From IMG/VR virus record IMGVR_UViG_3300017917_000715, positions 7,169 to 71,168 of that record: a DNA stretch of 64,000 nucleotides; one strand, 5' to 3'. The DNA comes from a virus. The notes under the pieces are model-generated. The model saw only the letters and a program-made list of their open reading frames with translations, was not told where the DNA came from and searched no databases. A program made the translations under genes and the position numbers. Shown piece by piece: positions 38,001-58,115 of the stretch; within the stretch, counting starts at the first letter, position 1, and the number at the start of each line of letters is the position of its first letter.

Positions 38001-40861
38001 AATTCGTATATAGTAATTGCATCATCATTTGCTAAATCAGCAGAAATAACAACAAACCCTTGACTATTAAAAGTGTAGTCTCGTTGGTATAACAATTGAG
38101 TATTGTTTAAGTACACTAATACTGATTTAGTTGATAGACTATCTAAATTAAATGTACTACTTAACGGATATGTTTTTATTCTATAATCAAAAACAACTAA
38201 GTCTGTTCTCACACCACCATTAAAAGGAACCATATCGCTAAAATAATAAGGAGCAGTCTTTGGTTTGTCTTTAGTTATTTCTTGTAAAATTAAATTAACC
38301 TGTGTTACAGGATCAGTATCAATGCCTAAATTTTCTGCAACTGTTATAAAGTTATGTTTAAATTTATTATAGTCTTCTCTTGCAGATTCAATTGCATTTA
38401 CAATATTGTTTCTTTCAGATGTAATATGATAAAGTGCTAAACTAATTGGGCCGCTGTGTTGAACAAATTTAGTTCCGTATGGTGTTATGTTACCAAGACT
38501 TTGTAAATTACTTGGGCCTGGATACAGCCCAGAAAAATCAGGAACATTCTCTACAATAGATCCAACATGGTCAATTACTTCACCAAGTGTAAAATCTGTA
38601 ATCTTATCGTTAAAAGAATTGTTTTGTAAATTAATTGGAATTTCATAGAACCCGTTATCATTAATAGGTTGATTTGCGTATGCTTTTATTGTTAGAATAT
38701 CGCTAGTTAATATGTCATTTGATAACACAATAGTCTTGTAATATGAACCGTCTACTACTGACCATTGTGTAGTATCTAAACGATTTCCATTTACAAAAAC
38801 TTTTATTCTTAAATCTTCAAGATTGTTAATATCATCAAAAATATCTAATTCAAAGTTATTAACTTTATTTGATTTCTTATAAATTCGTAAGGCTGCTTGT
38901 GTATTTTCAACGATTGATTTTTGCCAGCCGTTAATATACGAAACTTCAAATGTTGGCTCTGTTTTAACCAGATAACCAACTTCAGTGTTGCCTGTTAAGA
39001 TATTTGAAACATCTTTATACTGAAAAGTATCTGTTGCTAAATTAAAATTAAAAAGTATATCGCCAACGTTTGTAATATTTTTGTATGATAAAGGAAAACC
39101 TAAAACACTATCCGATGTTCCTGTTCCAACTTTATAAGAAAATAATTTTGTACCAATAAATGTTGAACCTTCATATACAGATTTATCGCCGTAGCTATAA
39201 CCATTAGAATCAACAATATCAAACAATGGTGCTTGATTCAATGATGTTTTTTCTTGTGCTACATTCCAGTTAGATCCGTTAAACCAATAAGTTTTTCCTT
39301 GGTTTTTATTGCCTTGGCGAATTAGTACAACATCATTTTGTTGAGGTATTGTTTCTTCAACTAAATGGATTTGACGAACACCGTCAAGTATTAAAAAATC
39401 AACTTTATAAATTCTGTTTTTAACAAGAATATCAGTATCGGCTATAAACAAAATTCGCTGACCTTGTGCTACTGGTATTCCGTCAATGTTATAACCTAGT
39501 TGTCCTTCAATTGTAGAAAACACATCAACTGTATAATCGTCTACAAGGTCAACATCGTTTACTGCTCTTGTGCCGTAATTAAAAAGTCTAATGTTTGGTT
39601 CAAACTCAATGATAGGACGTACTGCTCGAGCAGTTTGATCAATGTTTGCTATTTTACCGTTGTAGGTTGCGCTAGCTTCAATAACATCTTTGTGGAACCA
39701 TCTGTTATAACGAGACCATGGATTGTTATCATAGCTTCCTCTATTGATTAATACATAATCTTTATTTCCAGCAAAACTAGTTGCATCGCCAAATGGCAAA
39801 CTATCAAAAGGTGTACTGTCAAACGGAATTGCTTGTGCGGTTGTAAACGGTGAAAGAAGTTCTAATATTCTTTCGTCTACTAAACGAATAGAATCACCAA
39901 CGCCTTCAACAAAATATTGACTAGATTTATATGACTCTGGAATAACTTGTCCTTTAAAAGACACTTTCATTCCATTACGCAACTCTGTTCCATCAGGTAA
40001 AGTATAAGTTCTTTTACCAAGAATTTCTGTGTTGATATCAAATGTTGTATTTTCATCAATAGATAAAATCTCAAATACTCCGCCTAAATCAATGTCTGAC
40101 TCGCTGACATAGTAAAGGACGTCTGGAGAATTATATGGAACTGTAAATTCAATTACACCGTTTTCAACAGCATAACCAATTAATCCTTCATCTTGATATC
40201 TATCAGCAGGGCCTGCTGTTCTTTTAGTTTTAATTGAAAAAGGATTTCCCAAACTTGTAATTTCAAATCTATATGTTTCCCCCCTGTATAATCTAATGCT
40301 TGGATTTTGTTCTAAGCCAGTTGGAAAAAATACATAAGTGTTATTATCTGCTTCTGCACGTACTTCTACACGATAAGTACTGGTAATTTCTTGCTGTTTA
40401 CCTGTAATTGTAATAGTATCAGGGCCATATGGTAACCAGTAATAATTTTGAAAATTTACAAACTTATCCCAGTCGATGTGCGGATCCCAAGAATAAAATT
40501 CTTGAGAATTTAATCTTGAATGATTTGAAGTATTACCTCCAAATACCTTAAGTTGATTAATATAGTCTTGGTAATCTTTAAAGAAGGTAACATTACCTAA
40601 AGTATCAGTTACAGTATATCCTGGTTCAAGTTGATAATTTTGTCTATCATTACTTGGGGCTTTTATAAAAATGTCGTCACCGGTAGTTGCTTTAGAATTT
40701 TCTCTACCAATATATCCATTAATTTTTTTAACTGTACCCGGTTGTACTAGTTGATTGACCGTAGCTTGTAAAAACTTTTTATTAGAATCAGTTCTAAAAT
40801 ACTTGGGTAATAGATCTGCACTATTAGTTTTTTTGCCTTCTGAATTGATGCTATCAGCCAT
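26021..40861 (-). CDS. giant 4946-aa baseplate/structural protein (gp7-like position)
   Basis: Uninterrupted 14.8-kb ORF directly downstream of the gp6-like gene, with FG-GAP-like propeller repeats, CBM5/12-like modules, G.GY...P repeats and GDG....F Ig-like repeats. Confidence 0.8.
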   Translation of the reverse strand: MADSINSEGKKTNSADLLPKYFRTDSNKKFLQATVNQLVQPGTVKKINGYIGRENSKATTGDDIFIKAPSNDRQNYQLEPGYTVTDTLGNVTFFKDYQDYINQLKVFGGNTSNHSRLNSQEFYSWDPHIDWDKFVNFQNYYWLPYGPDTITITGKQQEITSTYRVEVRAEADNNTYVFFPTGLEQNPSIRLYRGETYRFEITSLGNPFSIKTKRTAGPADRYQDEGLIGYAVENGVIEFTVPYNSPDVLYYVSESDIDLGGVFEILSIDENTTFDINTEILGKRTYTLPDGTELRNGMKVSFKGQVIPESYKSSQYFVEGVGDSIRLVDERILELLSPFTTAQAIPFDSTPFDSLPFGDATSFAGNKDYVLINRGSYDNNPWSRYNRWFHKDVIEASATYNGKIANIDQTARAVRPIIEFEPNIRLFNYGTRAVNDVDLVDDYTVDVFSTIEGQLGYNIDGIPVAQGQRILFIADTDILVKNRIYKVDFLILDGVRQIHLVEETIPQQNDVVLIRQGNKNQGKTYWFNGSNWNVAQEKTSLNQAPLFDIVDSNGYSYGDKSVYEGSTFIGTKLFSYKVGTGTSDSVLGFPLSYKNITNVGDILFNFNLATDTFQYKDVSNILTGNTEVGYLVKTEPTFEVSYINGWQKSIVENTQAALRIYKKSNKVNNFELDIFDDINNLEDLRIKVFVNGNRLDTTQWSVVDGSYYKTIVLSNDILTSDILTIKAYANQPINDNGFYEIPINLQNNSFNDKITDFTLGEVIDHVGSIVENVPDFSGLYPGPSNLQSLGNITPYGTKFVQHSGPISLALYHITSERNNIVNAIESAREDYNKFKHNFITVAENLGIDTDPVTQVNLILQEITKDKPKTAPYYFSDMVPFNGGVRTDLVVFDYRIKTYPLSSTFNLDSLSTKSVLVYLNNTQLLYQRDYTFNSQGFVVISADLANDDAITIYEFENTNGSYIPPTPTKLGIWPKFEPKLYLDTSLVTPRQMIQCHDGSQVLAYGDYRDDLILELEKRIFNNIKIEYNPEIFDIHSVIPSYSRKTPYSLDEFNEVLATSFYKWLSLVDRDFTKPISYNKGDPLTFNHRGLTTPDGMLPLPGYWKGIHRWMLDTDRPNICPWEMLGFSIMPKWWEEVYGPAPYTSDNLVLWNDIADGMVREPGKPQRQLKEFVRPYLRNRIPVDEFGNIKSPIMSGLATGVITNSTAEDYIFGDVSPVESAWRRSSYYPFSVLITTLLLYPAKSIGLLLDRSRTVRNLAGQLIYKDTGIRIRPKDIKLPSIYSSASSVNTSGIINYLVDYILSDNLKSYSEYVSDLSTLGTNLSHRIGSFTSKEKFKLLLDSKTPLSSGSVFVPQEDYNIVTNTSSPIKKITYSGVIITRLGDGYTVKGYSKTQPFFKYYPYVKLGNLINVGGISESFSIWTPQYQYAAGKVVSYGNKYYRSKVLHTTTDTFEINYYQPLPALPVIGGRDAYIRRDWDKSETITIPYGTKFTSVQDVVDFLVGYGEWLKDEGFIFDDFNNNLNTISNWETSAKEFMFWSTQNWSTGKDKWAEWLPDQDVAAGSIVRYQGDYYRALRNLNASIAFNEEDYDKLDGLSEVGSAVISLSPAAAKLTFSSPLSVVDDIRNPFYGYEIFKVDGTPIQPNFLNNYRDDNSVSYAPSTGDGIYGATFYLVQKEQVAILNNTTMFNDTIYNPESGYRQERILVSGYISSDWNGSFNIPGFIFDQAVVLEWEPWKDYSLGDIVRHKQFYLSAASKVAGSETIDLTQWIKLDNKPTPQLLPNWTYKASQFTDFYSLDSDNFDADQQTVAQHLIGYQKRQYLSNIIKDDVSEFKFYQGMIVEKGTQNVLNKLFDVLSADGKESITFYEEWALRVGQYGASQAFENIEFIIDESLIKNNPQGFELVNQVDPAAVDFIVRQTPNDVYLKPIGYNNNPWPTTNNHSQYLRTPGYVRPDDVKFVLKEFDEVLTKDSTDFVDGDYVWVGFEGREWNVYRYTRLNVEVTDVTYSKPDAQITVKFSKNTTIEINDIIGIDQATEINGFYKVVSVGLQTITLSSPNLSSFTVPFQYRNKITVAIFRSQRIKNTVENGNVVKAIDIADQNFNSSPLEGELLWTDDDGSGKWATWQFNSAYTKTELTNLFPQAGASYGRQTTLNYSSDIAMITNDLGETIVYDKAGPNAPWLLRQTITVPFISKDVGDYNPTPPSLTGGAISISPDSQWFVTATPLASNVSSRCVFVNGSANWDSATTYSTGDVVVVGLTPYTALQASTNKNPTSQVNYWIESPFISANNATQATNASFENMGVVSLYSKDSSNNFSLVSTILSPAPSANEKFGSTVIFGDNTLFVGAPGADSGKGVVYRLTYSTRVEASTAYNPIGSLGSTIKLSSTLNIIAGMYIRGTGFNSKQYVAEVVDDTTIIINTPPDSEPSGILEFTQTEWRYDNNVISLPVGVQAEGFGSVLAISKDGSTLLISAPGLASVGKVFVYKKNTSGVFNWLQTIVGDEVEFGSSVTVSDSGTYIAISSIYKDTEKLIDQGQVYTYKFNGTTYTTTGFGLKNINPEPSGFFGSKIRFMNDYQTLVVYSKGADSRVISTFDLYTSIPASAIVTGMSYKIRKLGNTNWNLVAGTTGLIYTQGQLFTAVNVGTGTGTVIDLEQVPNTPTTFDNDLTRVTDLQEDTGRIDIYDMYNSRWIFSESLSNTDDKTVGYNEGFAVSSNHILVGAPYAIDQGIISGKVYEYRKKPNTLSWKKLRAEIDRVDLTKIKRAFLYNKTTNKLVSYLDVIDSVQGKIPGIADTEIKYKTFYDPATYSVGDTSVNVDDGMAWTSSQVGMLWWDLRTAKFFNSYDDNLIYRNSTWNTLFPGASVDIYEWVETKLTPAQWNEQADTETGIALGISGTSLYDNNVYSVVKKYDNISKSFKNTYYFWVKNKRTVPSIGNRKMSADSVANLIANPRGYGHKYLALTSSNSFSLVNVKPLLNDTDIVLSVEYWTSEETDKKIHSQWRIVNEDTETILPSAIEEKWFDSLCGKDLAGRVVPDPVLPPKLKYGIEDRPRQGMFVNRFEALKQFIEQVNRKLATELIVENRNISALESFEKEPSTITGLYDTTLDTDAELRFINIGSYEKPNLSVIIENGRIVDVVVNAKGRGYIIAPYFDITGSGTGAKIRAKINNRGQIIGAEIISGGYGYDSNTTISVRSYSVLVHSDSVANNSWSIYSYEPTTLTWSRVHSRSYDVRNYWSYADWYATGYNQFTAIDFSVNSFTELNNIESSVGQLVKIRTTNLGTWVLVEKYADSNSVDWTQSYRVVGREKGTIQFSSTLYEFSDSKYGFDGSLYDAGIFDDSASTELRIILDTLKNNILIDNLRGTYLDLFFSSVRYILSEQTYVDWIFKTSFVKAQHQVGELKQKVTYNNDNLSNFEDYIDEVKPYRTKIREYVSAYDKVDTNYLSTTDFDLPPVYENGKLLPITVNAVDGIIQADSSKVIEYPWKHWYDNLGYSITELVIADQGSGYVSEPVVKFVGNTGSGAKARAFITNGKVNRIVLLNKGTNYLSAPKVILEGGTTQNSTPAKAFAIIGNGVVRSNLVKIKFDRVTQAYFVTDLSATQIYSGETEVSGSRLQFPLIWAPDLRINKASVLINGVETLRANYKLSIVKSTSRGYTTYSGAITFTTAPAKGSTITINYIKDWSTLNAADRIQHYYTPSAGELGKDLAQLMTGIDYGGVVINSLGFESNQGWDSVPYYTDKWDSYDEKFDDYIVTVAANTHSFTLPYVPAAGTELNVYWSGVNIDSYSGDGFTLIYNFNVYDLYPPTVTITRSVNLVDAANLAGTDVLVVDSTDGLKIGDRVSITPIVEKQLGYNTLVTQIIDATHIKINQILFSDVEDSSVAIFTRDLVDPIDCRINGNGTVFLEEPVPVGSTITIKAFLSPVRLDDPNYNVTGVARNNLNTKKAELTVLEGQLLVLENEKAVIEDTLAQLNADLYDNQLELNTLNIILSQLQPGDPEYLPTVSQINYLVNTANPAIQSNIDSTTADLADKNDEIDAKQLEVTTKEAEVLAADNALTGLPPIANPDTAIMQTIISDGVPDNLINPTTKTFSIPGSFVVAQGDQFIWRKSTSDGSITPQDTDYDTALSGGNMAYSTATGLSADDILVDGDGFVTPISSPAPEEVVPGQVVDAVAIKVYDRVGSGSANIKVDSYIADGVQQEFDITQQPNSRTAVIVKFTEGQKDLITGQLGSISTIATLNDDYSVDYRNRKVIFNTAPTEGKMISIFSFGANGTDILDFDYFIGDGSTTEFITKAPWLSSINYYVTVDGLPAEPGTPAVFETDSSYDSANRTGLKFSVPPSNGALITYIIVKGTAQTYAITNTERIVGNGGTTYDLSYQIGDSLPIESNMIVRVGNTILNGPTNSYFTITGTKLNYTLDATKYLPYSVSVTDIVVIADGDLLTVGTDYIVDLSGITVKINTNTRKKYQNKSLVVSVRQDLGYVYVPATSTTSPQIVFATPYDSSNIIEVVSSYRHDVLDLQRTVINVTTQSNLVPNSAEYYYYKGVSGGIIQLDRTVLDDNYIWVIKNGSLLTPSADFKLNEDKKSIKLAFYPDAADQFTLITFSSNVVGANISYMQFKDMLNRTHFKRLNANKKTRLVRPLKYTDISIEVEDASNFDIPSIPNNKPGIIEIRGERIEYFKLEPKVTDGITTYLLSQLRRGTLGTGVPGIHRIGSYVQDIGASETIPYVESNTTEQVKSDGTNVVSLSFVPGGFTTDWEYQGRQMTQTETVDLAKSAVEAFVGGYASAAWSPNVDYKVNDVVEVGSYTYKCVSNHTSSTSFTTDSNNWVFFVGNIRLKKDSYKVHNVNIHPESTEGDVTFPADFTVDNLSTQLELTNTLTFGTRVTVVKRQGTSWDSKTNILDDDGKIARFIKAAPGVWYTDIGKYDITIGTASSFDSNGTFDGDTSTFDQG

Positions 40862-49864: not shown

Positions 49865-50698
49865 ATGACAACCAAAGTAAATTACCTAAACAACAAGGAT
49901 ATGTTGTTAGAGATACATCGAAGTAAAAGCTCATACTGTGTTTTTAAAGACCCTAGCTATCACCAATATGATATTATTCTACCTAGCTTAGAAAAAATTA
50001 ATATTCGAACTATTGCAGAAGCTAAAAGAAACAAAGCAAAACGGTTAGGAGATGCAGAATATGCTCGCCGAAAAGCTGCTGGTGAAAAGGTAAAACAAGC
50101 TGATTGTGAAGTTGACTATAAAAAGATTGCTAAAGAAGAACTAATATTTCGTATAATGACATACGATCATGTTCCAACGAATAATATTCGAAAGAAAAAT
50201 CCAAAAAGTACTGCTGACAAACACGATAAAGTAAACTTTCCCCCATTCCAACATTGGAAATTTAATGAAAACGATGAGCTAGTATGCGTTGGAAAAAGCC
50301 ACTGGAAGGGTTCGTTAGAAAAAGGTAAGTTTGACAAAGATGCTGGCCAAATTACTCCAACATTAGCAAGAATGATGTTAAAGTTGTGTGAGCGATATGC
50401 TACTCGTGGCAATGTCCGCGGCTATACTTACAATGACGAAATGAAGGGGCAAGCTATCTTGCAATTAACACAAATAGGACTACAATTTGATGAATCGAAG
50501 TCGGACAATCCTTTTGCGTATTTTACTGCGGCTGTTACTAATAGCTTTGTTCGTGTTATTAATATCGAAAAGCGTAACCAAAATATCCGCGATGACATTT
50601 TAGAAATGAACGGAATGAACCCAAGTTACAGCAGAACGGGGCAAGGTGAGCACGAAGCGGCTGTAAAAAGATACACTGAAGGTCTTAACGATGAGTAA
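49865..50698 (+). CDS. gp55: late transcription sigma factor, T4 gp55-like
   Basis: YLNNKDML N-terminus; RGYTYNDEM...FDESKSDNPFAYFT...SFVRVINIEK; synteny with gp47/gp46. Confidence 0.88.
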   Translation: MTTKVNYLNNKDMLLEIHRSKSSYCVFKDPSYHQYDIILPSLEKINIRTIAEAKRNKAKRLGDAEYARRKAAGEKVKQADCEVDYKKIAKEELIFRIMTYDHVPTNNIRKKNPKSTADKHDKVNFPPFQHWKFNENDELVCVGKSHWKGSLEKGKFDKDAGQITPTLARMMLKLCERYATRGNVRGYTYNDEMKGQAILQLTQIGLQFDESKSDNPFAYFTAAVTNSFVRVINIEKRNQNIRDDILEMNGMNPSYSRTGQGEHEAAVKRYTEGLNDE

Positions 50699-51704
50699 TT
50701 TATTTAAGAAGGTGGCTTGTTTTACAGATATCCACTTTGGATTAAAGTCAAACAGTTCAGTTCATAACAAGGATTGTGAAGATTTTATAGATTGGTATAT
50801 ACAAAAAGCCAAGGAGGAAGGATGTGACACAGGTATTTTTATGGGCGACTGGCATCACAACAGGAATAGTCTTAACATTACTACTATGGACTACTCCTTA
50901 CGAGCACTGGAGAAACTTGGACAGGCTTTTGATCAGTTTTATTTTTTTCCTGGCAATCACGATCTTTATTATAAAGATAAACGAGATATCCACAGCGTTG
51001 AATTTGGAAAGTATATTCCCGGAATCACAGTGGTACACGAACCGACTACCGTTGGGAACGTTACGCTCTGCCCGTGGTTAGTTAGTGACGAATGGAAACA
51101 AATAGGTAAAAAGAAAGCCAAGTATATCTTTGGGCACTTTGAACTTCCACACTTTTACATGAACGCTATGGTTCAAATGCCAGATCATGGTGAAATACAG
51201 TTAGATGCATTTGAAGGATACGAATTAGGATTCAGCGGGCACTTCCATAAGCGGCAAAGCAAAGGAAACATGCACTATATTGGTAATGCGTTTCCACACA
51301 ACTACGCTGATGCTTGGGATGATGACCGCGGTATGATGATTTTAGAGTGGGGGAAGCAACCAGAATACCATTCTTGGCCAGGTCAACCAACATTTCGCAC
51401 AGTAACTTTAAGCAGGCTCATTGACGAAGCTGACACATTAATTAAACCTAAACAACATTTGCGTGTTAGTTTAGACATTGACATTAGCTATGAAGAAGCA
51501 AGTTTCATTAAAGAAAACTTTATGGCCAATTATGACATCCGTGAGTTAACTTTAATTACAGAACGAAAAGAAGTTGAGATTAATACTAACATTGATATAC
51601 AACAGTTTGAGTCTGTTGACCAAATTGTATCGAATCAACTTGTAAGTATCGAAAGCGATACGTATAATAAGAATACGCTACTAGCGATTTATAACAGTTT
51701 ATGA
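50691..51704 (+). CDS. gp47: recombination endonuclease subunit, gp47/Mre11/SbcD-like
   Basis: Metallophosphoesterase motifs DIHFG, GDWHH, GNHD and SGHFH. Confidence 0.95.
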   Translation: MSNLFKKVACFTDIHFGLKSNSSVHNKDCEDFIDWYIQKAKEEGCDTGIFMGDWHHNRNSLNITTMDYSLRALEKLGQAFDQFYFFPGNHDLYYKDKRDIHSVEFGKYIPGITVVHEPTTVGNVTLCPWLVSDEWKQIGKKKAKYIFGHFELPHFYMNAMVQMPDHGEIQLDAFEGYELGFSGHFHKRQSKGNMHYIGNAFPHNYADAWDDDRGMMILEWGKQPEYHSWPGQPTFRTVTLSRLIDEADTLIKPKQHLRVSLDIDISYEEASFIKENFMANYDIRELTLITERKEVEINTNIDIQQFESVDQIVSNQLVSIESDTYNKNTLLAIYNSL

Positions 51705-53479
51705 TTAAAATAAAAGAACTAACAGTAAAAAACTTCATGAGTGTGGGCAACCAAACTCAAGCTGTTAACTTTAATAAAGAACACCTTACACTTGTATTAG
51801 GTGAAAACTTAGATATGGGCGGTGATGATAGTGGTTCCCGTAACGGAACTGGTAAGACAACTATTGTCAATGCACTAAGTTATGCTTTATTTGGTAATGC
51901 GTTGACTAACATTAAAAAAGATAATTTAATAAACAAAATCAATAATAAAAATATGTTAGTCACGCTCTCTTTTGAGAAAGACGGTATAGACTATCGCATT
52001 GAACGAGGACGAAAACCTAACATATTACAGTTCTTTGTTAACGATGAAGCACAAGAGCAAGAAGAAACCGACGATGCTCAAGGCGATATGCGTGAAACAC
52101 AAAAGGATTTAGATGATCTGTTGGGCATGAGCCACGATATGTTTAAGCACATTGTAGCTCTTAATACCTATACAGAACCATTCTTGAGTATGCGAGCTAA
52201 TGATCAACGTGCTATTATTGAGCAGTTGTTAGGAATTACCATTCTTAGTGAAAAAGCAGAAACACTTAAAGAACTAATTCGTCAGACTAAAGAATCTATT
52301 ACTCAAGAAAACGCAAATATTGAAGCAACTAAGCGATCAAACGAAAAGATTCAACAAAGTATTGATAGCTTGTTAACTAGACAGAACGCATGGAATACTC
52401 AAAGAGATAACGATTTAGAAAAGATAGGTCGTGCTATTATCGAACTTGAGGGTGTAGATATTGAAGCAGAGCTACAAGCTCACGCAGATCTTAAGATACA
52501 TCAAGAGCAGTCTACAAGACTGCGGAGCCTTAGCAAGGAGAGGGCAACGCTAGAAAGCGCAACAGCGCAAGCGGAGCGAAGCGTAGCAAAATACGCTAGC
52601 GAATTAAGTAAGCTGGCTAATAAAACCTGTCACGCATGTGAACAAGAGCTACACGATCACAAGCACGAAGAGATGACCACTACTGCTCAAAAGCATTTAG
52701 ATGAAGCTAATGCGTATGCTCTAAAGGTTGCTACTGACCTTGCTAAGATTCAAGATGAAATTACTGCTATTGGCGAGCTAGGCAAGCAACCTGATACTTA
52801 TTATGAAACTGTTGAAGAAGCTCTTAAGCATCAAAACAATTTAAAAACTCTAGAAACACAACTAACAGTTCGTGCAGGTGAAGTTGATCCATATCAAGAC
52901 CAAATTGATGAGCTTATGGAAACTGCTATGCAGGAAATTACTTGGGACAAGATTAACGAACTGGGCAGCTTAAAGGACCATCAAGAGTTCTTGCTTAAAC
53001 TGCTAACTTCTAAAGATAGTTTTATCCGTAAGAAAATTATTGATCAAAACTTGGCATACTTAAACAACCGCTTGACTTATTACTTAGACAAGATGGGATT
53101 ACCGCATACTGTCTTGTTCCAAAACGACTTGTCAGTATTAATTACCCAGTTAGGACAAGACTTAGACTTTGATAACTTATCGCGTGGTGAGCGCAATCGT
53201 TTAATACTTGGCTTGTCTTGGTCGTTCCGTGATGTGTGGGAGTCGTTGTATCAAAACATTAACTTATTATTTGTTGATGAGCTTATTGACAACGGCTTAG
53301 ATGCGTCAGGTGTTGAGTCTGCACTAGCAGTACTTAAGAAAATGGCTCGTGAACGTAGCAAAAACATATTCTTAATTTCGCACAAAGACGAATTACAAGG
53401 TCGTGTAAACAATGTACTTAAAGTTGTTAAAGAAAACGGCTTTACTTCATATGCTACAGACTTAGAGGTAACAGAATGA
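51701..53479 (+). CDS. gp46: recombination ATPase subunit, gp46/Rad50/SbcC-like
   Basis: Walker A NGTGKT, coiled coil with CHAC zinc hook, LSRGE signature, Walker B LFVDE and ISH. Confidence 0.95.
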   Translation: MIKIKELTVKNFMSVGNQTQAVNFNKEHLTLVLGENLDMGGDDSGSRNGTGKTTIVNALSYALFGNALTNIKKDNLINKINNKNMLVTLSFEKDGIDYRIERGRKPNILQFFVNDEAQEQEETDDAQGDMRETQKDLDDLLGMSHDMFKHIVALNTYTEPFLSMRANDQRAIIEQLLGITILSEKAETLKELIRQTKESITQENANIEATKRSNEKIQQSIDSLLTRQNAWNTQRDNDLEKIGRAIIELEGVDIEAELQAHADLKIHQEQSTRLRSLSKERATLESATAQAERSVAKYASELSKLANKTCHACEQELHDHKHEEMTTTAQKHLDEANAYALKVATDLAKIQDEITAIGELGKQPDTYYETVEEALKHQNNLKTLETQLTVRAGEVDPYQDQIDELMETAMQEITWDKINELGSLKDHQEFLLKLLTSKDSFIRKKIIDQNLAYLNNRLTYYLDKMGLPHTVLFQNDLSVLITQLGQDLDFDNLSRGERNRLILGLSWSFRDVWESLYQNINLLFVDELIDNGLDASGVESALAVLKKMARERSKNIFLISHKDELQGRVNNVLKVVKENGFTSYATDLEVTE

Positions 53480-53877
53480 AGATAGGGTTTACTTGTTCAA
53501 CGTTTGATTTGTTTCACGCTGGGCATGTTATGATGCTTAAAGAAGCTAAAGAGCAATGCGATTACTTGATAGTTGGACTACAAACAGATCCAACTATTGA
53601 CCGAGACTGGAAAAACAAACCAGTCCAAGGTGTGTTTGAACGATTTGTACAGCTACAGGCTTGTAAATTTGTTGACGAAGTTGTAGTATACGCTACTGAA
53701 AAAGAATTGCGTGACATATTATTGTCATATCCAATTAATATTCGCATACTAGGCGAAGAGTATAAAGACAAAGGATTTACTGGATGTGAAATTCCTATGG
53801 AATACTATTACAATCAGCGCAAACACTCGTTTAGTACAACAGAATTGCGCCAACGAGTGATCGATGCATCAAGATGA
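53476..53877 (+). CDS. cytidylyltransferase (TagD/glycerol-3-phosphate cytidylyltransferase-like)
   Basis: TFDLFHAGH HxGH motif, CDYLIVGL and RKHSFSTTELR. Confidence 0.9.
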   Translation: MKIGFTCSTFDLFHAGHVMMLKEAKEQCDYLIVGLQTDPTIDRDWKNKPVQGVFERFVQLQACKFVDEVVVYATEKELRDILLSYPINIRILGEEYKDKGFTGCEIPMEYYYNQRKHSFSTTELRQRVIDASR

Positions 53878-54091
53878 AGAACTACATGCTGAGTTGCTCA
53901 GAGTCTTTAGAGAATACTTTGAAGCAAACCAGCGTTGGATCAACGAAGGCACTAAGGTGTCGGCTATACGATTGCGACAAAAACTTTCAGAGATACGTAC
54001 CATTTGTAGCAAGCGGAGAGTTGTTGTCCGTGACTGGGCTGTAGAAAAAGAAGCGCAGTTAGCGGAACGTAAAGAAAAACGTAAAAAATGA
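53864..54091 (+). CDS. small basic Hc1 (histone H1-like) family protein
   Basis: GTKVSAIRLRQKLSEIRTICSKRR resembles the G.K.AG.RARK.L.EL...K..R Hc1 pattern. Confidence 0.6.
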   Translation: MHQDEELHAELLRVFREYFEANQRWINEGTKVSAIRLRQKLSEIRTICSKRRVVVRDWAVEKEAQLAERKEKRKK

Positions 54092-54840: not shown

Positions 54841-54864
54841 CCAATCCGTGGCATACATAAGTGC

Positions 54865-55308
54865 ATGTCATGGTATTACAAAGATCAACTAATTGAAACC
54901 CTCCCTGAGGACTGTGTTGGCTTTGTGTATATCATAACTAACCTCTTAAGCGACCGGAAATACATAGGCAAAAAACTAGCTAAATTTTCCAAAACTACAT
55001 ATAAAACAGTAAAACTTAAAAACGGCACAAAGAAAAAGAAAAAGATTCGCAGTAAAATAGACAGCGACTGGCAAGAATATTATGGTTCTAGCCCAGAATT
55101 ATCTAAAGATATTGCGGAATTAGGCACAGCAAACTTCAAAAGAGAAATACTTTTTTACTGTACTAGCAAGGCAGAATGTAGTTATATCGAGGCTCGCGAA
55201 CAATTTTCCCGCAAAGTTTTAGAATCAAATGAGTATTATAACGGCCATATTCAAGTAAGAGTACACGGCTCACATATAATCAAGGCTCAACAAAAACAGG
55301 CAAAATAA
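54865..55308 (+). CDS. minimal GIY-YIG endonuclease (Seg-like catalytic domain only)
   Basis: GFVYIITN...RKYIGKK, YYGSS, FKREIL, EAREQF and YYN; Lys-rich insert; no C-terminal DNA-binding repeats. Confidence 0.88.
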   Translation: MSWYYKDQLIETLPEDCVGFVYIITNLLSDRKYIGKKLAKFSKTTYKTVKLKNGTKKKKKIRSKIDSDWQEYYGSSPELSKDIAELGTANFKREILFYCTSKAECSYIEAREQFSRKVLESNEYYNGHIQVRVHGSHIIKAQQKQAK

Positions 55309-55790
55309 CGCCAAATTAAGCCCGCACTGGCGACTGTTAAGTGCCCAAAATCCGTTCTGATGTGTGACGGTAAGGTAGTTCTGCTTGGCGCAGAGATGCA
55401 AATCACTATCCTTTACAGGACGTTGATGGGATATGCCTAAAGAAAAACCCGTTTGATTTGTAGCTATAGGATAAGAAATAGGCTAAAAGAAGGGAGAAAA
55501 ACCCTACGTTTGCAAGTCAGTTAGCGTTGATTTGTAAACCGCCGTCATGTTAAGACAGCACGATTAGGTACCGGATGACCGCCTAAGCTAGTAGAAATAC
55601 TTGTAGTGTAAACGCTAAGTGAACTGCTCAACTCAGATAATGTTCAACTTTTGCCCGCAAGGGCAAAGTGTGACTACACAATCTAGATAATATCTAAACG
55701 CTTCGCGTTTATCATATGTTTGTTGATTATGTAAAAAATAGAAAAAAGCTCGAGCGAAAGCGAAGAGCAGAAGAACGTAGTTCTTCTTTT
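55309..55790 (+). ncRNA. putative large structured ncRNA of unrecognised family
   Basis: Largest gap without a credible gene in the window. More than 10 hand-folded helices with G-U pairs on the + strand, GNRA tetraloops, three loop-to-distal complementarities and a terminal hairpin plus T run. Confidence 0.7.
55769..55790 (+). terminator. possible intrinsic terminator
   Basis: AGAAGAAC-GTA-GTTCTTCT followed by TTT, just before the next late promoter. Confidence 0.5.
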
Positions 55791-55796
55791 AACAGT

Positions 55797-55804
55797 GATA
55801 AATA
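55797..55804 (+). promoter_or_regulatory. T4-type late promoter (GATAAATA)
   Basis: Motif 20 nt upstream of ATG 55825, which has a GAGG RBS. Confidence 0.65.
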
Positions 55805-55824
55805 TCATACCACGAGGAATTATA

Positions 55825-57066
55825 ATGAAAGTCCATGAAATATTAGCAGAAGAAAGCCCTAAAGGTGTTGCATTTGAAATCTTTATAAAGATGTTGCCTA
55901 AAGAACTATCAAAAGCAGCATTAAAAGAAATTGATGATGCATTGCGCTGGTTAGCACGTACAGCTAAATCAAATCCTACTGTTGTTGAGGACTTAGCCAC
56001 TTCGTGGGTTGCTGGTTCTAAGCAATTAGGTATTAGTGTTCGCGAAATGGCACAAATGGCTGAACCTATTTGTAAGAAAGCTGGCATTGATGAGATGGAC
56101 ATTTATAAAGCTAAAGTGCTTGCTGAGAAATTAGCAGAGCCAAGCATGTGGCAAAAATTCAAAGATATGGTAGGCCTTGGTTCTAAGAAAGATCCTCTCA
56201 AACCTGCTGAAACTCCTAAGCCCGGTGAAGCTCCTGCGCCAGCACCTAAACCAGGTGAACCTCCTGCGCCTACTCCGACTCCTGAGCCAGCACCTACTAC
56301 AACACCTAAACCAAGTGAACCACCAGCACCAGCTACTCCTACTAGAATTGCTGAACTACAATCAACTGGTAGAAAATGGTTAGAAAAGTATAACCCAAAA
56401 TTGATGAGTTGGTGGCAAAGAGCTGATGTTATTGCTATGGCATACGGTATTATTGAGCCTTGGTATACATTTAAAAAAGATGCAGAATGGGCAATTGGCG
56501 CATTTACAACACAAGCTAAAAACCCAGACGGGTCGTTGATATTTAAAACTAAAGAAGAGTTGTCTAAAGGCGTACAGCAAGCTGCACAAGAAGCAATGGC
56601 ACAAACATTAGCCCTAATAGCAGGAAGAAAAATTATTGGATACTTTACCGGTGTCAACAGATTAAGAGCACTAGACAAGAAAACACAAGACGAGATTAAC
56701 GCTATCTATTCTACGTTAGGTGCAAAAGGACAAGTTGCCTTTGCCGCTTGGTTAGATACACCTCCAGGACGTCGTGCATTTGACGGATGGTTATGGGGTC
56801 AACTGTATAGCCAAACTGGACAAGAGGATACTGCTCCAGATTTGGCACTATCGCTTAACTCTGTACAAGGACAAGTAGCGTGGGCTATGCGTCAAGTAAG
56901 CAAATATTTAGGTGGATTTGTTAAGTCATTCTACGATGAAGCATTGCGTGCTGCAGGCGGAGTTGATAGCCAAGGCAACAATGCTGCACAAGCACAACAA
57001 CAACAGAATCAAGCTAGAGATTCTATTCCAGGCGGTGGTGTTATTCACTCAACTACTGAAAAATAA
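55825..57066 (+). CDS. hypothetical late protein with Pro-rich linker (start re-assigned to MKVHEIL)
   Basis: Late promoter and RBS; PKPGE(A/P)PAP repeats at ~56200-56340. Confidence 0.72.
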   Translation: MKVHEILAEESPKGVAFEIFIKMLPKELSKAALKEIDDALRWLARTAKSNPTVVEDLATSWVAGSKQLGISVREMAQMAEPICKKAGIDEMDIYKAKVLAEKLAEPSMWQKFKDMVGLGSKKDPLKPAETPKPGEAPAPAPKPGEPPAPTPTPEPAPTTTPKPSEPPAPATPTRIAELQSTGRKWLEKYNPKLMSWWQRADVIAMAYGIIEPWYTFKKDAEWAIGAFTTQAKNPDGSLIFKTKEELSKGVQQAAQEAMAQTLALIAGRKIIGYFTGVNRLRALDKKTQDEINAIYSTLGAKGQVAFAAWLDTPPGRRAFDGWLWGQLYSQTGQEDTAPDLALSLNSVQGQVAWAMRQVSKYLGGFVKSFYDEALRAAGGVDSQGNNAAQAQQQQNQARDSIPGGGVIHSTTEK

Positions 57067-57303
57067 TTAGACTAACGGCATTTGAGCTTCTTTAGTAAGC
57101 TCAATTCGTTCTTTGATTACAGTATACATTGCTTCGCGATCTTCAAAACTAAATTCGTGCAACAGCTGATGCACCGATACACCGCCTCGCATATACCAAC
57201 TGAGTCTTGCTAACTCTGTTTTAAAATCAATTATTTCTTTTTCAAGCCTAATTAAGTACTGTTCGATATCCGAGGCGGATAACCTAATTAGGCTGTTACG
57301 AAA
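57067..57303 (-). CDS. unannotated -1 frame extension of the gp26-like gene (78 codons; gp51/gpT-like position)
   Basis: Open frame FRNSLIRLSASDIEQYLIRLEKEIIDFKTELARLSWYMRGGVSVHQLLHEFSFEDREAMYTVIKERIELTKEAQMPLV* fills the 57067-57288 gap exactly; the first ATG is only at 57192. Confidence 0.78.
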   Translation of the reverse strand, partial: FRNSLIRLSASDIEQYLIRLEKEIIDFKTELARLSWYMRGGVSVHQLLHEFSFEDREAMYTVIKERIELTKEAQMPLV

Positions 57304-57309
57304 AAATTT
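57245..57309 (-). promoter_or_regulatory. programmed -1 ribosomal frameshift signal
   Basis: A_AAU_UUU_UUC (57309-57300), 5-nt spacer, then 13-bp stem AGCCUAAUUAGGU/ACUUAAUUAGGCU (57294-57245). Confidence 0.78.
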
Positions 57310-58115
57310 GACTGGTCTAAGTCAATACTTAAAGTAGACTCTTGACCGCAATGACTGCAAGTAACCGTTTGCGGAGGACTTGTCCAGATTTTTTGATTCT
57401 TTTCAATTTGCTTGCCAACAGCAGTCATAACACTTGAATCAGCGTTAGCAATAAATTCTTCGATAAATGCACGTTCAGTAACAACAACTTTGCCAGTGTC
57501 AATCGATTCAATGCCGCTTGCAAACACTTCATTTCTAACAGTTGCTAGTTTTTGGAAGATATCAGCCATAACTGTTTTCTTTTCAAGTTCGTCTTCCATT
57601 AGTACTGCTTGATTTAATTGTTGTTGTAGTTGAAAATTTTGTGTGCTAAAATCTGTACTTTGTTTGTAACTAAGAGGTTTGATAATAATTTTAAGATCTT
57701 GTAGCACTACAGTATTGTCGTATTGACATTGACTGTAATGATCAATTAACTTATTAAGATCCATTGAATACTCGTTATCCGTACCGCATTTTTTACACTT
57801 GTCTGCTAAATGTAATTCACTACCATATGTGGCTATTCTAATAGCTGCTAACACTAAATCAGTGTCTAAATTGCTTAGGTCCCATGGATCAGTAATGCTT
57901 GGACAACAACTTTGAATTACTTTAGCTGTGCTTTCTCCTGTTAACAAAGCGTCAGGAGTCTTTAACATGATTTCATCCATGCCAGTCATGCCAAACACTG
58001 GCAAATGTGCAGGATCACCTTGTAGTGTTCCTGGTTTATTGTACAGTCCACCGCTGGGTAAACTGATATAGATCTTAGGTTGTCTAAAGTATTGCTGTAG
58101 TGGATTTTGAGCCAT
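57288..58115 (-). CDS. gp26: baseplate hub/tail assembly chaperone, T4 gp26-like
   Basis: YISLPSGG, D.DLVLAAIRIATYG, two CxxC pairs (CKKCG, CSHCG), ending DQSNFF. Confidence 0.8.
   Translation of the reverse strand: MAQNPLQQYFRQPKIYISLPSGGLYNKPGTLQGDPAHLPVFGMTGMDEIMLKTPDALLTGESTAKVIQSCCPSITDPWDLSNLDTDLVLAAIRIATYGSELHLADKCKKCGTDNEYSMDLNKLIDHYSQCQYDNTVVLQDLKIIIKPLSYKQSTDFSTQNFQLQQQLNQAVLMEDELEKKTVMADIFQKLATVRNEVFASGIESIDTGKVVVTERAFIEEFIANADSSVMTAVGKQIEKNQKIWTSPPQTVTCSHCGQESTLSIDLDQSNFFVTA

What the first reader, a model, noticed from the sequence alone, without database searches (positions are those of the whole stretch)
54852..55790. Minimal GIY-YIG nuclease immediately followed by a large multi-pseudoknot ncRNA: candidate nuclease-RNA system
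Seen: a genome otherwise packed with overlapping genes leaves ~515 nt without a credible gene after the GIY-YIG stop (55306-55308). Hand folding of the + strand gives GCACU/AGUGC (55324-44), CCGUU/GACGG (55352-70) and UUCUGC-UUGGC-GCAGAG (55379-95). A multibranch domain is closed by UGCAAAUCA/UGAUUUGUA (55397-405/55454-62) and holds UCCU-UUAC-AGGA and GAUGGG/CCCGUU. Further helices are AGGG/CCCU (55491-505), a 13-bp stem with three G-U pairs (55508-20/55527-39), UUAGG..CGG-AUGA-CCG-CCUAA (55564-86), AGUA-GAAA-UACU and UUUGCCC-GCAA-GGGCAAA. Three loops have exact distal complements: UUGGCG (55385-90) with CGCCAA (55309-14, the first bases after the stop), GCCUA (55435-39) with UAGGC (55479-83), and UUAGCG (55521-26) with CGCUAA (55613-18). 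The G-U pairs work only on the + strand. Established: free-standing Seg-type GIY-YIG homing nucleases usually carry extra DNA-binding domains, whereas this 147-aa protein has only the catalytic domain plus a KTVKLKNGTKKKKKIRSK insert. Inference: gene and RNA are co-transcribed from a late-promoter-like CATACATA box (54852-59) and may form a ribonucleoprotein (RNA-scaffolded or RNA-guided nuclease, by analogy to IscB/HEARO). The RNA could instead be an independent ribozyme or structural RNA. I do not recognise it as a known family.
Basis: partly seen in the sequence, partly recalled or inferred. Interest (0 to 1): 0.9.

Follow-up and report, generated by a model that had tools for sequence, protein, structure and literature searches.

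The report
Full-length Polynucleobacter-1 twin-box phage RNA
The gene-free stretch behind a small nuclease gene of this uncultured T4-like phage encodes a real, knotted RNA of about 480 bases whose first third is an orphan motif catalogued in 2010; it is probably not a guide for the nuclease, and it carries one 7-letter word twice for a purpose still unknown.

Summary
Window 55309-55790 (+) is a conserved, non-coding, multi-pseudoknot RNA. The remaining ~330 nt reaches no Rfam cut-off, yet it is conserved and covaries in more than 140 distinct phage contigs.

One is not. I add a fourth.

Linkage to the 147-aa SegE-type GIY-YIG gene is real (62 of 76 RNA loci) but not obligatory. Five loci carry a PDDEXK_15 nuclease instead and about four carry neither. 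The same GIY-YIG family sits in 492 cultured-phage records; the four loci examined there have no such RNA. No guide-like variable segment exists, and no nuclease residue tracks the RNA.

The oddest feature is two 7-nt boxes (55635-41 and 55685-91, AGAUAAU), identical in 133 of 133 relatives across 11 different words. I found no complementary partner in cis or in a 99%-complete genome.

My reading: a large phage RNA that works through its twin words, with the nuclease as a neighbour or processing partner, not an RNA-guided enzyme. This scan has found the same family before on other DNA.

The parts
54865..55308 (+). 147-aa minimal SegE-type GIY-YIG nuclease gene (the neighbour)
   Evidence: PF19835, E 5.8e-32, profile positions 1-123 of 123. 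phrog_447 matched over its full length.
55309..55314 (+). 5' strand (CGCCAA) of pseudoknot A, starting right after the stop codon
   Evidence: Covaries with the loop 55385-90: matched 5.32 against permuted 4.31.
55319..55463 (+). Polynucleobacter-1 domain (Rfam RF01718)
   Evidence: 76.6 bits against a cut-off of 37; model positions 1-141 of 141. Helices covary.
55491..55505 (+). Small hairpin AGGG/CCCU
   Evidence: 55493/55504 shows G-C 26, C-G 11, U-A 5.
55508..55539 (+). 13-bp hairpin whose loop UUAGCG (55521-26) forms pseudoknot C
   Evidence: Helices 1 and 2: 84-86% paired, 12 of 13 pairs with changes on both sides.
55545..55548 (+).
   Evidence: 95.9% paired; U-A 41 / C-G 32 and G-C 46 / A-U 20 (helices 4 and 5).
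55564..55586 (+). Near-invariant core hairpin GGUACCGG-AUGA-CCGCC
   Evidence: Invariant columns in 73 sequences. 55566/55584 covaries.
55613..55618 (+). CGCUAA, 3' strand of pseudoknot C
   Evidence: 96.3% paired; 6 of 6 pairs compensatory (helix 3).
55631..55641 (+). Twin word 1: ACUC + box AGAUAAU (box = 55635-41)
   Evidence: Box identical to box 2 in 133 of 133 relatives. Prefix always CUC.
55649..55674 (+). Hairpin UUUUGCCC-GCAA-GGGCAAAG, then the near-invariant UGUGAC, between the twin words
   Evidence: Conserved; helix 9.
55681..55691 (+). Twin word 2: AUCU + box AGAUAAU (box = 55685-91)
   Evidence: identical box. Prefix always UCU. Box-to-box spacing 47-59 nt in relatives.
55695..55711 (+). 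Hairpin UAAACGC-UUC-GCGUUUA
   Evidence: helices 10, 11; the CGCUUCGCG core is conserved.
55748..55768 (+). GNRA hairpin GCUC-GAGC-GAAA-GCGAA-GAGC
   Evidence: The flanks covary in the alignment (GCUC/GAGC, GUUC/GAAC).
55769..55792 (+). Terminal hairpin AGAAGAAC-GUA-GUUCUUCU plus UUUUAA; probable 3' end
   Evidence: 55772/55784, 55773/55783, 55774/55782 and 55775/55781 covary. A run of three or more U is present at this end in only 37 of 122 relatives.
55798..55804 (+). ATAAATA, T4-type late-promoter-like box of the next gene (start 55825); not part of the RNA
   Evidence: ATAAATA lies within about 70 nt after the RNA in 52 of 122 relatives, and 42 of those have an ATG 8-40 nt later. That this is the T4 late-promoter consensus is recalled, not from a call.

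Best explanation
Window 55309-55790 (+) is the full-length form of the orphan Polynucleobacter-1 RNA. It is a ~480-nt, multi-pseudoknot non-coding RNA of uncultured T4-like (jumbo) freshwater phages. It sits in a fixed slot after the gp47/gp46-like recombination-nuclease genes and directly behind a small nuclease gene, and ends in a hairpin. In the window the next gene has its own late-promoter-like box.

Shown: the RNA exists as a conserved, covarying fold with at least three supported pseudoknots. Its 5' third is RF01718. It carries two single-stranded, purine-rich 7-nt boxes that are always identical. The nuclease gene beside it is replaceable.

Inferred: it is co-transcribed with the nuclease gene, because its 5' pseudoknot strand abuts or overlaps the end of that ORF. 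It is not a guide for the nuclease.

Mechanism I commit to (about 45% in all): the ornate scaffold displays the two identical words so that each base-pairs with a copy of one complementary strand. The candidate I favour (about 20%) is the template DNA strand of the other word in its own gene. That cross-pairing automatically demands box1 = box2. It would anchor an R-loop, as the upstream G-run of ColE1 RNA II does (recalled). The alternative (about 25%) is an outside RNA or DNA partner that I could not find. Confidence that this is an extended Polynucleobacter-1 phage RNA and not an RNA-guided nuclease system is about 0.9.
For: Rfam match of 76.6 bits over the full model. The whole gap is conserved behind the nuclease gene at 68-82% nucleotide identity.

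Covariation: 80.6% of cells paired against 69.4% shuffled and 38-45% when partners are slid. 468 cells changed on both sides against 181 shuffled.

Twin boxes: 133 of 133 identical, 11 word types, A at -4 also concerted, spacing 47-59 nt. A twelfth word (AUGAAGA, in both copies) occurs in L118. The boxes are purine-rich (5-6 of 7), which favours RNA:DNA hybrids (established knowledge, recalled).

No covarying complement in the aligned RNA, in the flanking 3-7 kb, or in a 99%-complete 345-kb genome apart from the self sites and one chance coding match.

Nuclease independence. Slot between the SbcD/SbcC-like genes and the baseplate hub.
Against: No transcript data: no RNA run is listed, so ends, processing and expression are unshown. 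The R-loop idea has no direct support. GC skew shows no inflection at the locus in the window or in the 345-kb genome. The invariant prefixes (CUC against UCU) would not pair in a cross hybrid, leaving only 7-8 bp. A G in a box could wobble-pair with U, so a fixed partner would not by itself enforce strict identity.

The adjacency to a small nuclease is very persistent (67 of 76 loci with GIY-YIG nearby, 5 with PDDEXK_15), and one nuclease family is swapped for another in the same slot. That could mean a functional nuclease-RNA pair after all. Sequences are related, so covariation counts are inflated by shared descent.
Confidence: 0.5

Rival explanations
1. Nuclease-RNA functional module without guiding. 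The RNA forms a branched or R-loop structure at its own locus, and the adjacent structure-specific nuclease (GIY-YIG, or a PDDEXK_15 resolvase-like enzyme in other phages) cuts it. The cut starts recombination-dependent replication or creates a recombination hot spot.
For: A small nuclease lies next to the RNA in 72 of 76 determinable loci. Two unrelated nuclease folds occupy the same slot. The slot follows the gp47/gp46-like SbcD/SbcC genes. Linkage persists to 37-56% GIY-YIG identity. Twin boxes fit RNA-DNA cross-pairing.
Against: About 4 loci have neither nuclease, and 5 have another ORF in between. Cultured phages with either nuclease showed no such RNA in the seven loci examined and the five genomes scanned whole. 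No GC-skew signal. No nuclease column covaries with the boxes.
Confidence: 0.15
2. The twin words read each other. The two direct copies form an intramolecular parallel-stranded helix of homo base pairs (A.A, G.G, U.U, with C.U in the prefix). Identity, not complementarity, is then what selection preserves, and no outside partner exists. The RNA would be a self-contained scaffold, possibly oligomeric like ROOL or GOLLD.
For: Identity at 8 positions in 133 of 133 sequences, and strictly pyrimidine-pyrimidine at the three prefix positions. The two copies run in the same direction. A 36-48-nt connector holding a hairpin could span a parallel helix. The words are purine-rich. No complement was found anywhere. 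That trans Watson-Crick homo pairs give parallel strands is textbook knowledge, recalled.
Against: I know of no natural RNA with an 8-12-pair parallel homo-paired helix. C.C (3 sequences) would need protonation. Nothing here tests geometry. A.G pairs should be tolerable but are never seen.
Confidence: 0.12
3. One reading: the GIY-YIG protein and the RNA form a ribonucleoprotein in which the RNA scaffolds or guides the nuclease (IscB/HEARO-like).
For: Tight adjacency, same strand, and an RNA that starts at the stop codon. The protein lacks any DNA-binding domain.
Against: The RNA occurs without the protein and the protein without the RNA. There is no long variable guide; only 12 short words were seen. 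No protein column tracks the words. The whole family profile (phrog_447, 148 positions) is equally minimal in phages that lack the RNA.
Confidence: 0.06
4. A selfish homing endonuclease merely parked beside a conserved RNA gene (intron-less homing, as T4 SegB sits in the tRNA cluster). On this view there is no functional tie at all.
For: The family is annotated as homing endonuclease and sits in many different contexts in cultured phages. Flanking genes vary between loci. A conserved motif precedes the gene like a cassette feature.
Against: Homing genes are usually sporadic. Here 62 of 76 RNA loci carry it, and linkage survives deep divergence. Replacement by another nuclease, not by nothing, hints at need.
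Confidence: 0.12
5. A cis-regulatory leader (5' UTR) of the downstream gene. The table of the 2010 paper marks the cis-regulatory column 'y' for Polynucleobacter-1.
For: Table of PMC2864571 (passage seen). The RNA is upstream of, and on the same strand as, the 413-aa gene in the window.
Against: 360 nt of further conserved RNA, a terminal hairpin and a separate ATAAATA box lie between the motif and the ATG. In about 25 of the 80 GIY-YIG loci the next ORF of 70 aa or more is on the other strand.
Confidence: 0.04

Closest known systems
Polynucleobacter-1 RNA motif (Rfam RF01718; Weinberg et al. 2010, Genome Biol 11:R31, PMC2864571; I saw only the table passage)
   Same: Window 55319-55463 matches the whole 141-position model at twice the cut-off. 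The habitat is freshwater-type: the paper's table says Burkholderiales and fresh water/estuary, and the one full DNA holder is labelled pond metagenome (it may be the source sample).
   Different: The catalogued motif is only the 5' third. The real unit runs about 30 nt further 5' and about 330 nt further 3'. It has three supported pseudoknots and twin boxes, lives in T4-like phage contigs, and is not a simple 5' UTR element.
cow-rumen-2 RNA motif (Rfam RF02947)
   Same: A sub-threshold match at 55508-55605 shares a hairpin with a UUAGC loop, then GCCGCCAU, then GGAUGACC. 22 of 40 related contigs give a sub-threshold match. In the four I compared, the match lies 37-44 nt 3' of the RF01718 match.
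   Different: Best score 27.7 bits against a cut-off of 66, so it is not a member. At most it is a distant relative of the core module.
GOLLD (RF01998) and ROOL (RF03087), large ornate RNAs of phages and prophages (cryo-EM: bioRxiv 10.1101/2024.12.08.627333; listing and abstract seen)
   Same: Large, intricately folded RNAs carried by phages, with unknown function and no protein partner required for the fold.
   Different: No Rfam match. This RNA is smaller, and identity-type covariation of two boxes is not a feature I know of in those RNAs.
ColE1 RNA II pre-primer and the T4 oriF/oriG R-loop transcripts (recalled, no paper read here)
   Same: A structured RNA of about 500 nt. In RNA II an upstream RNA segment pairs with template DNA further downstream, which makes two stretches of the RNA alike. 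The setting here is next to replication and recombination genes.
   Different: No evidence of a hybrid, an origin or RNase H processing here. The GC skew is silent.
IscB/HEARO (omega RNA) and TnpB/reRNA guided nucleases
   Same: A small nuclease gene abutting a large structured RNA gene.
   Different: Different nuclease fold, no guide segment, and the linkage is not obligatory.
T4 mobE plus the gene 60 50-nt bypass cassette (recalled)
   Same: A free-standing homing nuclease next to a ~50-nt hairpin-bearing insert flanked by matched short words.
   Different: There the words are codons read by a ribosome. Here there is no ORF: a conserved in-frame UGA lies at 55620 and there is no conserved start.

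Membership tests
Polynucleobacter-1 RNA (RF01718) | Covariance-model score at or above the curated gathering score | tested here: met
   76.6 bits against 37, E 1.7e-14.
Polynucleobacter-1 RNA (RF01718) | All helices of the consensus present over the full model | tested here: met
   Model positions 1-141 of 141 aligned, not truncated. Pairs 55404/55455, 55428/55450, 55430/55448 and 55328/55340 covary.
Polynucleobacter-1 RNA (RF01718) | Proposed cis-regulatory 5' UTR role (table of PMC2864571) | tested here: not met
   The motif is followed by about 330 nt of conserved RNA, a terminal hairpin and a separate ATAAATA box. In about 25 of 80 GIY-YIG loci the next ORF is on the other strand.
SegE-type GIY-YIG nuclease (PF19835 / phrog_447) | Full-length profile match above the cut-off | tested here: met
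   111 bits against 25; profile positions 1-123 of 123. phrog_447 E 4.2e-37.
RNA-guided nuclease systems (IscB-omega RNA/HEARO, TnpB-reRNA) | Nuclease and RNA occur together obligately | tested here: not met
   The RNA occurs with PDDEXK_15 or with neither nuclease. The nuclease occurs without the RNA.
RNA-guided nuclease systems (IscB-omega RNA/HEARO, TnpB-reRNA) | A variable guide segment beside a conserved scaffold | tested here: not met
   The only concerted variable elements are two 7-nt boxes with 12 words in all. No 15-20-nt hypervariable end.
RNA-guided nuclease systems (IscB-omega RNA/HEARO, TnpB-reRNA) | Protein binds the RNA and cleaves in an RNA-dependent way | not testable with these tools
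   Needs biochemistry.
Group I intron carrying a GIY-YIG homing gene | Match to the group I intron model and a split host gene | tested here: not met
   No such Rfam match even at E up to 10. The flanking ORFs are complete.
cow-rumen-2 RNA (RF02947) | Score at or above the gathering score | tested here: not met
   18.6 bits in the window and 27.7 bits at best in relatives, against 66.
ColE1 RNA II-type R-loop primer | Upstream RNA segment able to pair with template DNA downstream | tested here: met
   Box 1 equals box 2 in 133 of 133 sequences, so either RNA box is complementary to the template strand of the other. This is a resemblance in logic only.
ColE1 RNA II-type R-loop primer | Persistent RNA-DNA hybrid and origin activity | tested here: inconclusive
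   No GC-skew inflection at the locus. The hybrid itself is not testable here.
GOLLD / ROOL ornate RNAs | Match to RF01998 or RF03087 | tested here: not met
   No match.

The most novel reading that the evidence does not exclude
The RNA reads DNA. Its scaffold presents two identical purine-rich words so that each pairs with the template strand of the other word in its own gene. This locks a programmed R-loop, which the neighbouring small nuclease (GIY-YIG or PDDEXK_15) then cuts to fire replication or recombination. That would be a nuclease-RNA system after all, but of a kind not described: self-addressed, not guide-programmed.
Probability: 0.1. Interest if true: 0.85.

Novelty: new variant of a known kind. 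Interest (0 to 1): 0.6.

Why it matters
An orphan Rfam motif, unexplained since 2010, turns out to be the front third of a ~480-nt knotted RNA. That RNA is near-universal in a clade of large freshwater T4-like phages and sits at a fixed place beside recombination nucleases.

Its two boxes show covariation by identity (133 of 133 sequences, 11 words). Ordinary RNA folding does not produce this. It points to an unknown partner, to RNA-DNA cross-pairing at the RNA's own gene, or to an unusual parallel helix. Each option is testable with one-box and two-box mutants.

It is also a caution: a nuclease gene next to an ornate RNA is not by itself evidence of an RNA-guided enzyme.

Tried and rejected
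Searches that found nothing:
- blastn of 54865-55830 against cultured phages: no match.
- A near-consensus 196-nt core at E up to 10: only chance fragments.
- Relatives of the downstream 413-aa protein: none by pattern scan, Pfam, PHROGs or Atlas.
- tRNA/tmRNA: none in the window.

Rejected readings of the boxes:
- Translational bypass or hop (gene 60-like). A conserved in-frame UGA lies 5 codons upstream of box 1, there is no conserved start, and box spacing varies from 47 to 59 nt.
- Boxes as promoters. The GAUGAA and GAUGAU variants lose the -10 character, and the promoter scan is at chance level (5 found, 5.2 expected).
- CRISPR-like repeat. There is only an 18-bit minus-strand match to CRISPR-DR57 over the hairpin.
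- The helix between box 1 (RGAU) and the AUCU prefix of box 2 proposed by RNAalifold. It is broken in the GCAU, GAAU and AGUU variants, which still keep identity.
- A third strand in cis. No column has mutual information above 0.5 with the box columns other than the twin column. No consistent reverse complement lies within the loci.
- A reader elsewhere in the genome. The 11-mer complement pattern in 5 large contigs gave only the self sites plus coding matches (both encode YYPD) in unrelated genes.
- Box-to-box deletion variants. 0 of 12 sequences lacking a box are precise deletions: 7 are contig ends, L086 and L106 are irregular, L004 and L066 keep only the 3' 100 nt, and L118 has its own twin word.
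- GC skew as an origin signal: null.

Cultured relatives. Model R1 and RF01718 on Atu_ph07, MIJ3, Phosso, Melnitz and S-SRM01 (whole genomes), and on the phiN3 and P-HM2 loci, gave nothing convincing. The best were 18 bits in MIJ3 lacking the core and 17 bits in Phosso over 42 nt. I did not test E. coli or Cronobacter phages.

Bacterial genomes. One strict pattern scan gave 5 hits, all on MAG contigs. Looser bacterial forms were not searched.

Sequencing runs. No RNA holder is listed. Read laying was not used, because only DNA contigs were on offer. No protein fold or complex job was sent. Supplements of PMC2864571, which describe the motif, could not be seen.

Not-in-print claim. It rests on searches 11 (1 paper), 35, 43 and 89 only.
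Full report
WHAT IS THERE. The window is part of an IMG/VR virus record of 71,168 nt, estimated 19% complete. Its genes are T4-like: SbcD/SbcC-like gp47/gp46 at 50691-53479 and a baseplate hub at 57288-58115. The ORF 54865..55308 encodes a 147-aa protein. It matches the SegE_GIY-YIG domain PF19835 end to end (residues 3-129 on profile positions 1-123 of 123, E 5.8e-32). It also matches the 148-position phage family phrog_447. The lysine-rich stretch is therefore part of the family, not an insert. The next credible gene starts at 55825. It is preceded by GAGGA and by ATAAATA at 55798-55804. Between the two genes every reading frame holds at least 7 stops. In 101 full-length relatives the longest ORF has a median of 56 aa.

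KNOWN PART. Rfam's gathering-threshold scan of the whole window returns one match: RF01718, Polynucleobacter-1 RNA, at 55319-55463 (+). It scores 76.6 bits against a cut-off of 37 and covers model positions 1-141 of 141. The only paper in the library that names the motif is Weinberg et al. 2010. I saw its table row: RNA 'y', cis-regulatory 'y', switch '?', Burkholderiales and fresh water/estuary.

UNKNOWN PART. The rest of the gap reaches no Rfam cut-off. The best sub-threshold match is cow-rumen-2 (RF02947, 18.6 bits against 66) at 55508-55605. It shares a UUAGC-loop hairpin, GCCGCCAU and GGAUGACC. 22 of 40 related contigs also give a sub-threshold match (best 27.7 bits). In the four I compared, the match lies 37-44 nt 3' of the RF01718 match. 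This is a lead to distant kinship, not membership.

RELATIVES.
- Protein-first sample. A pattern scan of IMG/VR found more than 600 stretches encoding relatives of the GIY-YIG protein, and I kept the best 80 (74-88% identity). blastn of the window's gap matched about 55 of those 80 loci, starting right after the stop codon, at 68-82% identity over up to 510 nt. RF01718 is above its cut-off, once each, in 65 of the 80 contigs (35 of 40 and 30 of 40).
- RNA-first sample. 91 of them match an nhmmer profile of the whole RNA.
- Upstream neighbours. Of 88 distinct RNAs in the RNA-first sample, 12 lie at contig ends. Of the other 76, 60 have GIY-YIG directly upstream, and L104 and L110 bring this to 62 by the coordinates. 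Five have GIY-YIG with another ORF in between. Five have a PDDEXK_15 endonuclease instead (PF24608, E 2.5e-29). About four have neither.
- Persistence and exceptions. Linkage persists where the GIY-YIG is only 37-56% identical (11 loci). Conversely, five close GIY-YIG loci have the next ORF abutting (L004, L040, L041, L051, L066).
- Cultured phages. tblastn finds the family in 492 cultured-phage records. Melnitz, phiN3, P-HM2 and S-SRM01 have no comparable gap and no match to my model or to RF01718 at the loci. Melnitz and S-SRM01 were also scanned whole without a match.
- Bacterial genomes. A strict pattern scan of 185,579 species' genomes gave 5 hits, all on MAG contigs.

STRUCTURE. On a MAFFT alignment of 73 sequences covering 55506-55714 (each under 90% identical to the others), my structure gives 80.6% paired cells. 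The controls are 69.4% after shuffling (0 of 500 shuffles as high) and 38-45% when partners are slid. 468 cells changed on both sides, against 181 shuffled.
- A further pseudoknot, UCAU (55545-48) with the AUGA loop (55575-78), is 95.9% paired (U-A 41 / C-G 32; G-C 46 / A-U 20).
- GCCUA/UAGGC is not supported (3.68 against 3.86).
- An AGGC motif 20-25 nt before the first helix occurs in 84 of 112 relatives. It lies inside the nuclease ORF in some and behind its stop in others, so the RNA's 5' edge overlaps the ORF end.
- Folding energy is better than shuffles on both strands (z -2.74 and -3.77). The strand call rests on Rfam and on the G-U pairs.

THE TWIN BOXES. Mutual-information analysis turned up pairs of columns that are identical, not complementary. 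Direct extraction from 133 distinct relatives shows the following.
- The 7 nt at 55635-41 and 55685-91 are the same in 133 of 133 sequences.
- There are 11 different words: AGAUAAU, GGAUAAU, GGAUGAU, AGAUGAU, GGAUGAA, AGAUGAA, GCAUAAU, GAAUGAU, AGAUAAA, GGAUAAA and AGUUGAA.
- The A four bases upstream is also concerted.
- The three bases in between are always CUC before box 1 and UCU before box 2.
- The box-to-box spacing is 47-59 nt.
- L118 carries a twelfth word, AUGAAGA, in both places.

I found no partner for the boxes. No other column covaries with them. No reverse complement recurs in the flanks. No GIY-YIG alignment column tracks them (highest mutual information 0.18 and 0.39). In five large contigs, one of them 99% complete at 345 kb, the 11-mer complement occurs only at the self sites and in two unrelated coding sequences. 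A ribosomal hop is excluded by a conserved in-frame UGA and the lack of a start.

HOW IT MOST LIKELY WORKS.
- Shown: a conserved, knotted RNA with two identical, exposed, purine-rich words, and a replaceable nuclease neighbour.
- Inferred: co-transcription with the nuclease gene, and a 3' end at the covarying hairpin 55769-87. A run of three or more U is present at that end in only 37 of 122 relatives.
- Mechanism: I commit to base-pairing of the two words with one kind of complementary strand (about 45%). Within that, I favour the template DNA of the other word (about 20%). That pairing explains identity without any extra gene, fits the purine bias, and has a precedent in ColE1 RNA II (recalled). 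An outside partner takes about 25%.

WHAT IS AGAINST MY READING. There are no transcript data (one search lists no RNA holder). GC skew is silent. The cross hybrid would be only 7-8 bp. The persistence of a nuclease in the slot may mean more than neighbourhood.

NOVELTY. The 5' third is known. The full-length RNA, its pseudoknots and the identity covariation are not in Rfam, nor in the papers my four searches reached. This scan has reported the same family repeatedly on other DNA. I reached the boxes independently and agree with those notes. I could not confirm one note's claim of culturable relatives, at least in the Agrobacterium phage I tested.

Noticed in passing
window 54845-54864 and the same place in L002-L081: A recurrent motif (A/T)ACTAYAT (CATACATA in the window) lies 5-10 nt before the GIY-YIG start in many of the 61 distinct upstream regions. 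There is no Shine-Dalgarno sequence and no ATAAATA box there. It may be a cassette-specific start or promoter signal.
   Followed up: partly
window 55285-55318; An AGGC motif 20-25 nt before the first RNA helix occurs in 84 of 112 relatives. It lies inside the nuclease ORF in some and after its stop in others. A second AGGC (55479-82) follows the Polynucleobacter-1 domain.
   Followed up: partly
window 55617-55630 and 55665-55680: Each twin word is preceded by AAGUGA / AAGUGUGAC directly after a helix strand. The twin unit may therefore be a ~27-nt duplicated module, not just 7 nt.
   Followed up: no
L216:1590-2420 (Sinorhizobium phage Phosso, PV764938.1): An ORF-poor 1-kb gap beside the PDDEXK_15 resolvase gene holds an exact 11-nt direct repeat, GAATAGCGAAG, at 1713 and 1779 (66 nt apart), plus GC-rich hairpins. 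This could be an unrelated twin-box RNA in a cultured jumbo phage.
   Followed up: partly
L215:978-2491 (Pseudomonas phage vB_PaeM_MIJ3, LR588166.1): A 1.5-kb unannotated, ORF-poor gap (no ORF over 52 aa within it) lies between the baseplate-hub side and the D14/resolvase gene. There is no Rfam match and no convincing match to my model.
   Followed up: partly
L004 and L066 (IMG/VR loci): GIY-YIG is followed at once by a short ORF. Only the last ~100 nt of the RNA (box 2 and the 3' hairpins) survive, as if the 5' 350 nt had been replaced.
   Followed up: no
L112, L114, L124, L125, L160, L161 and others: A subfamily lacks the Polynucleobacter-1 domain. It has an unrelated segment of about 90 nt (~85 nt measured in L114) before the same 3' core and twin boxes, so the RNA is modular.
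   Followed up: partly
window 26021-40861 (-) and 19256-24976 (-): Giant ORFs of 4,946 aa and 1,906 aa in the structural region. Not examined.
   Followed up: no
window 53864-54091 and L127:3676-3957: A small conserved ORF (75-93 aa, motif EELHxELxxxxREYFxANQxW) sits between the gp46-like gene and the nuclease in both GIY-YIG and PDDEXK loci. It has no Pfam match.
   Followed up: no
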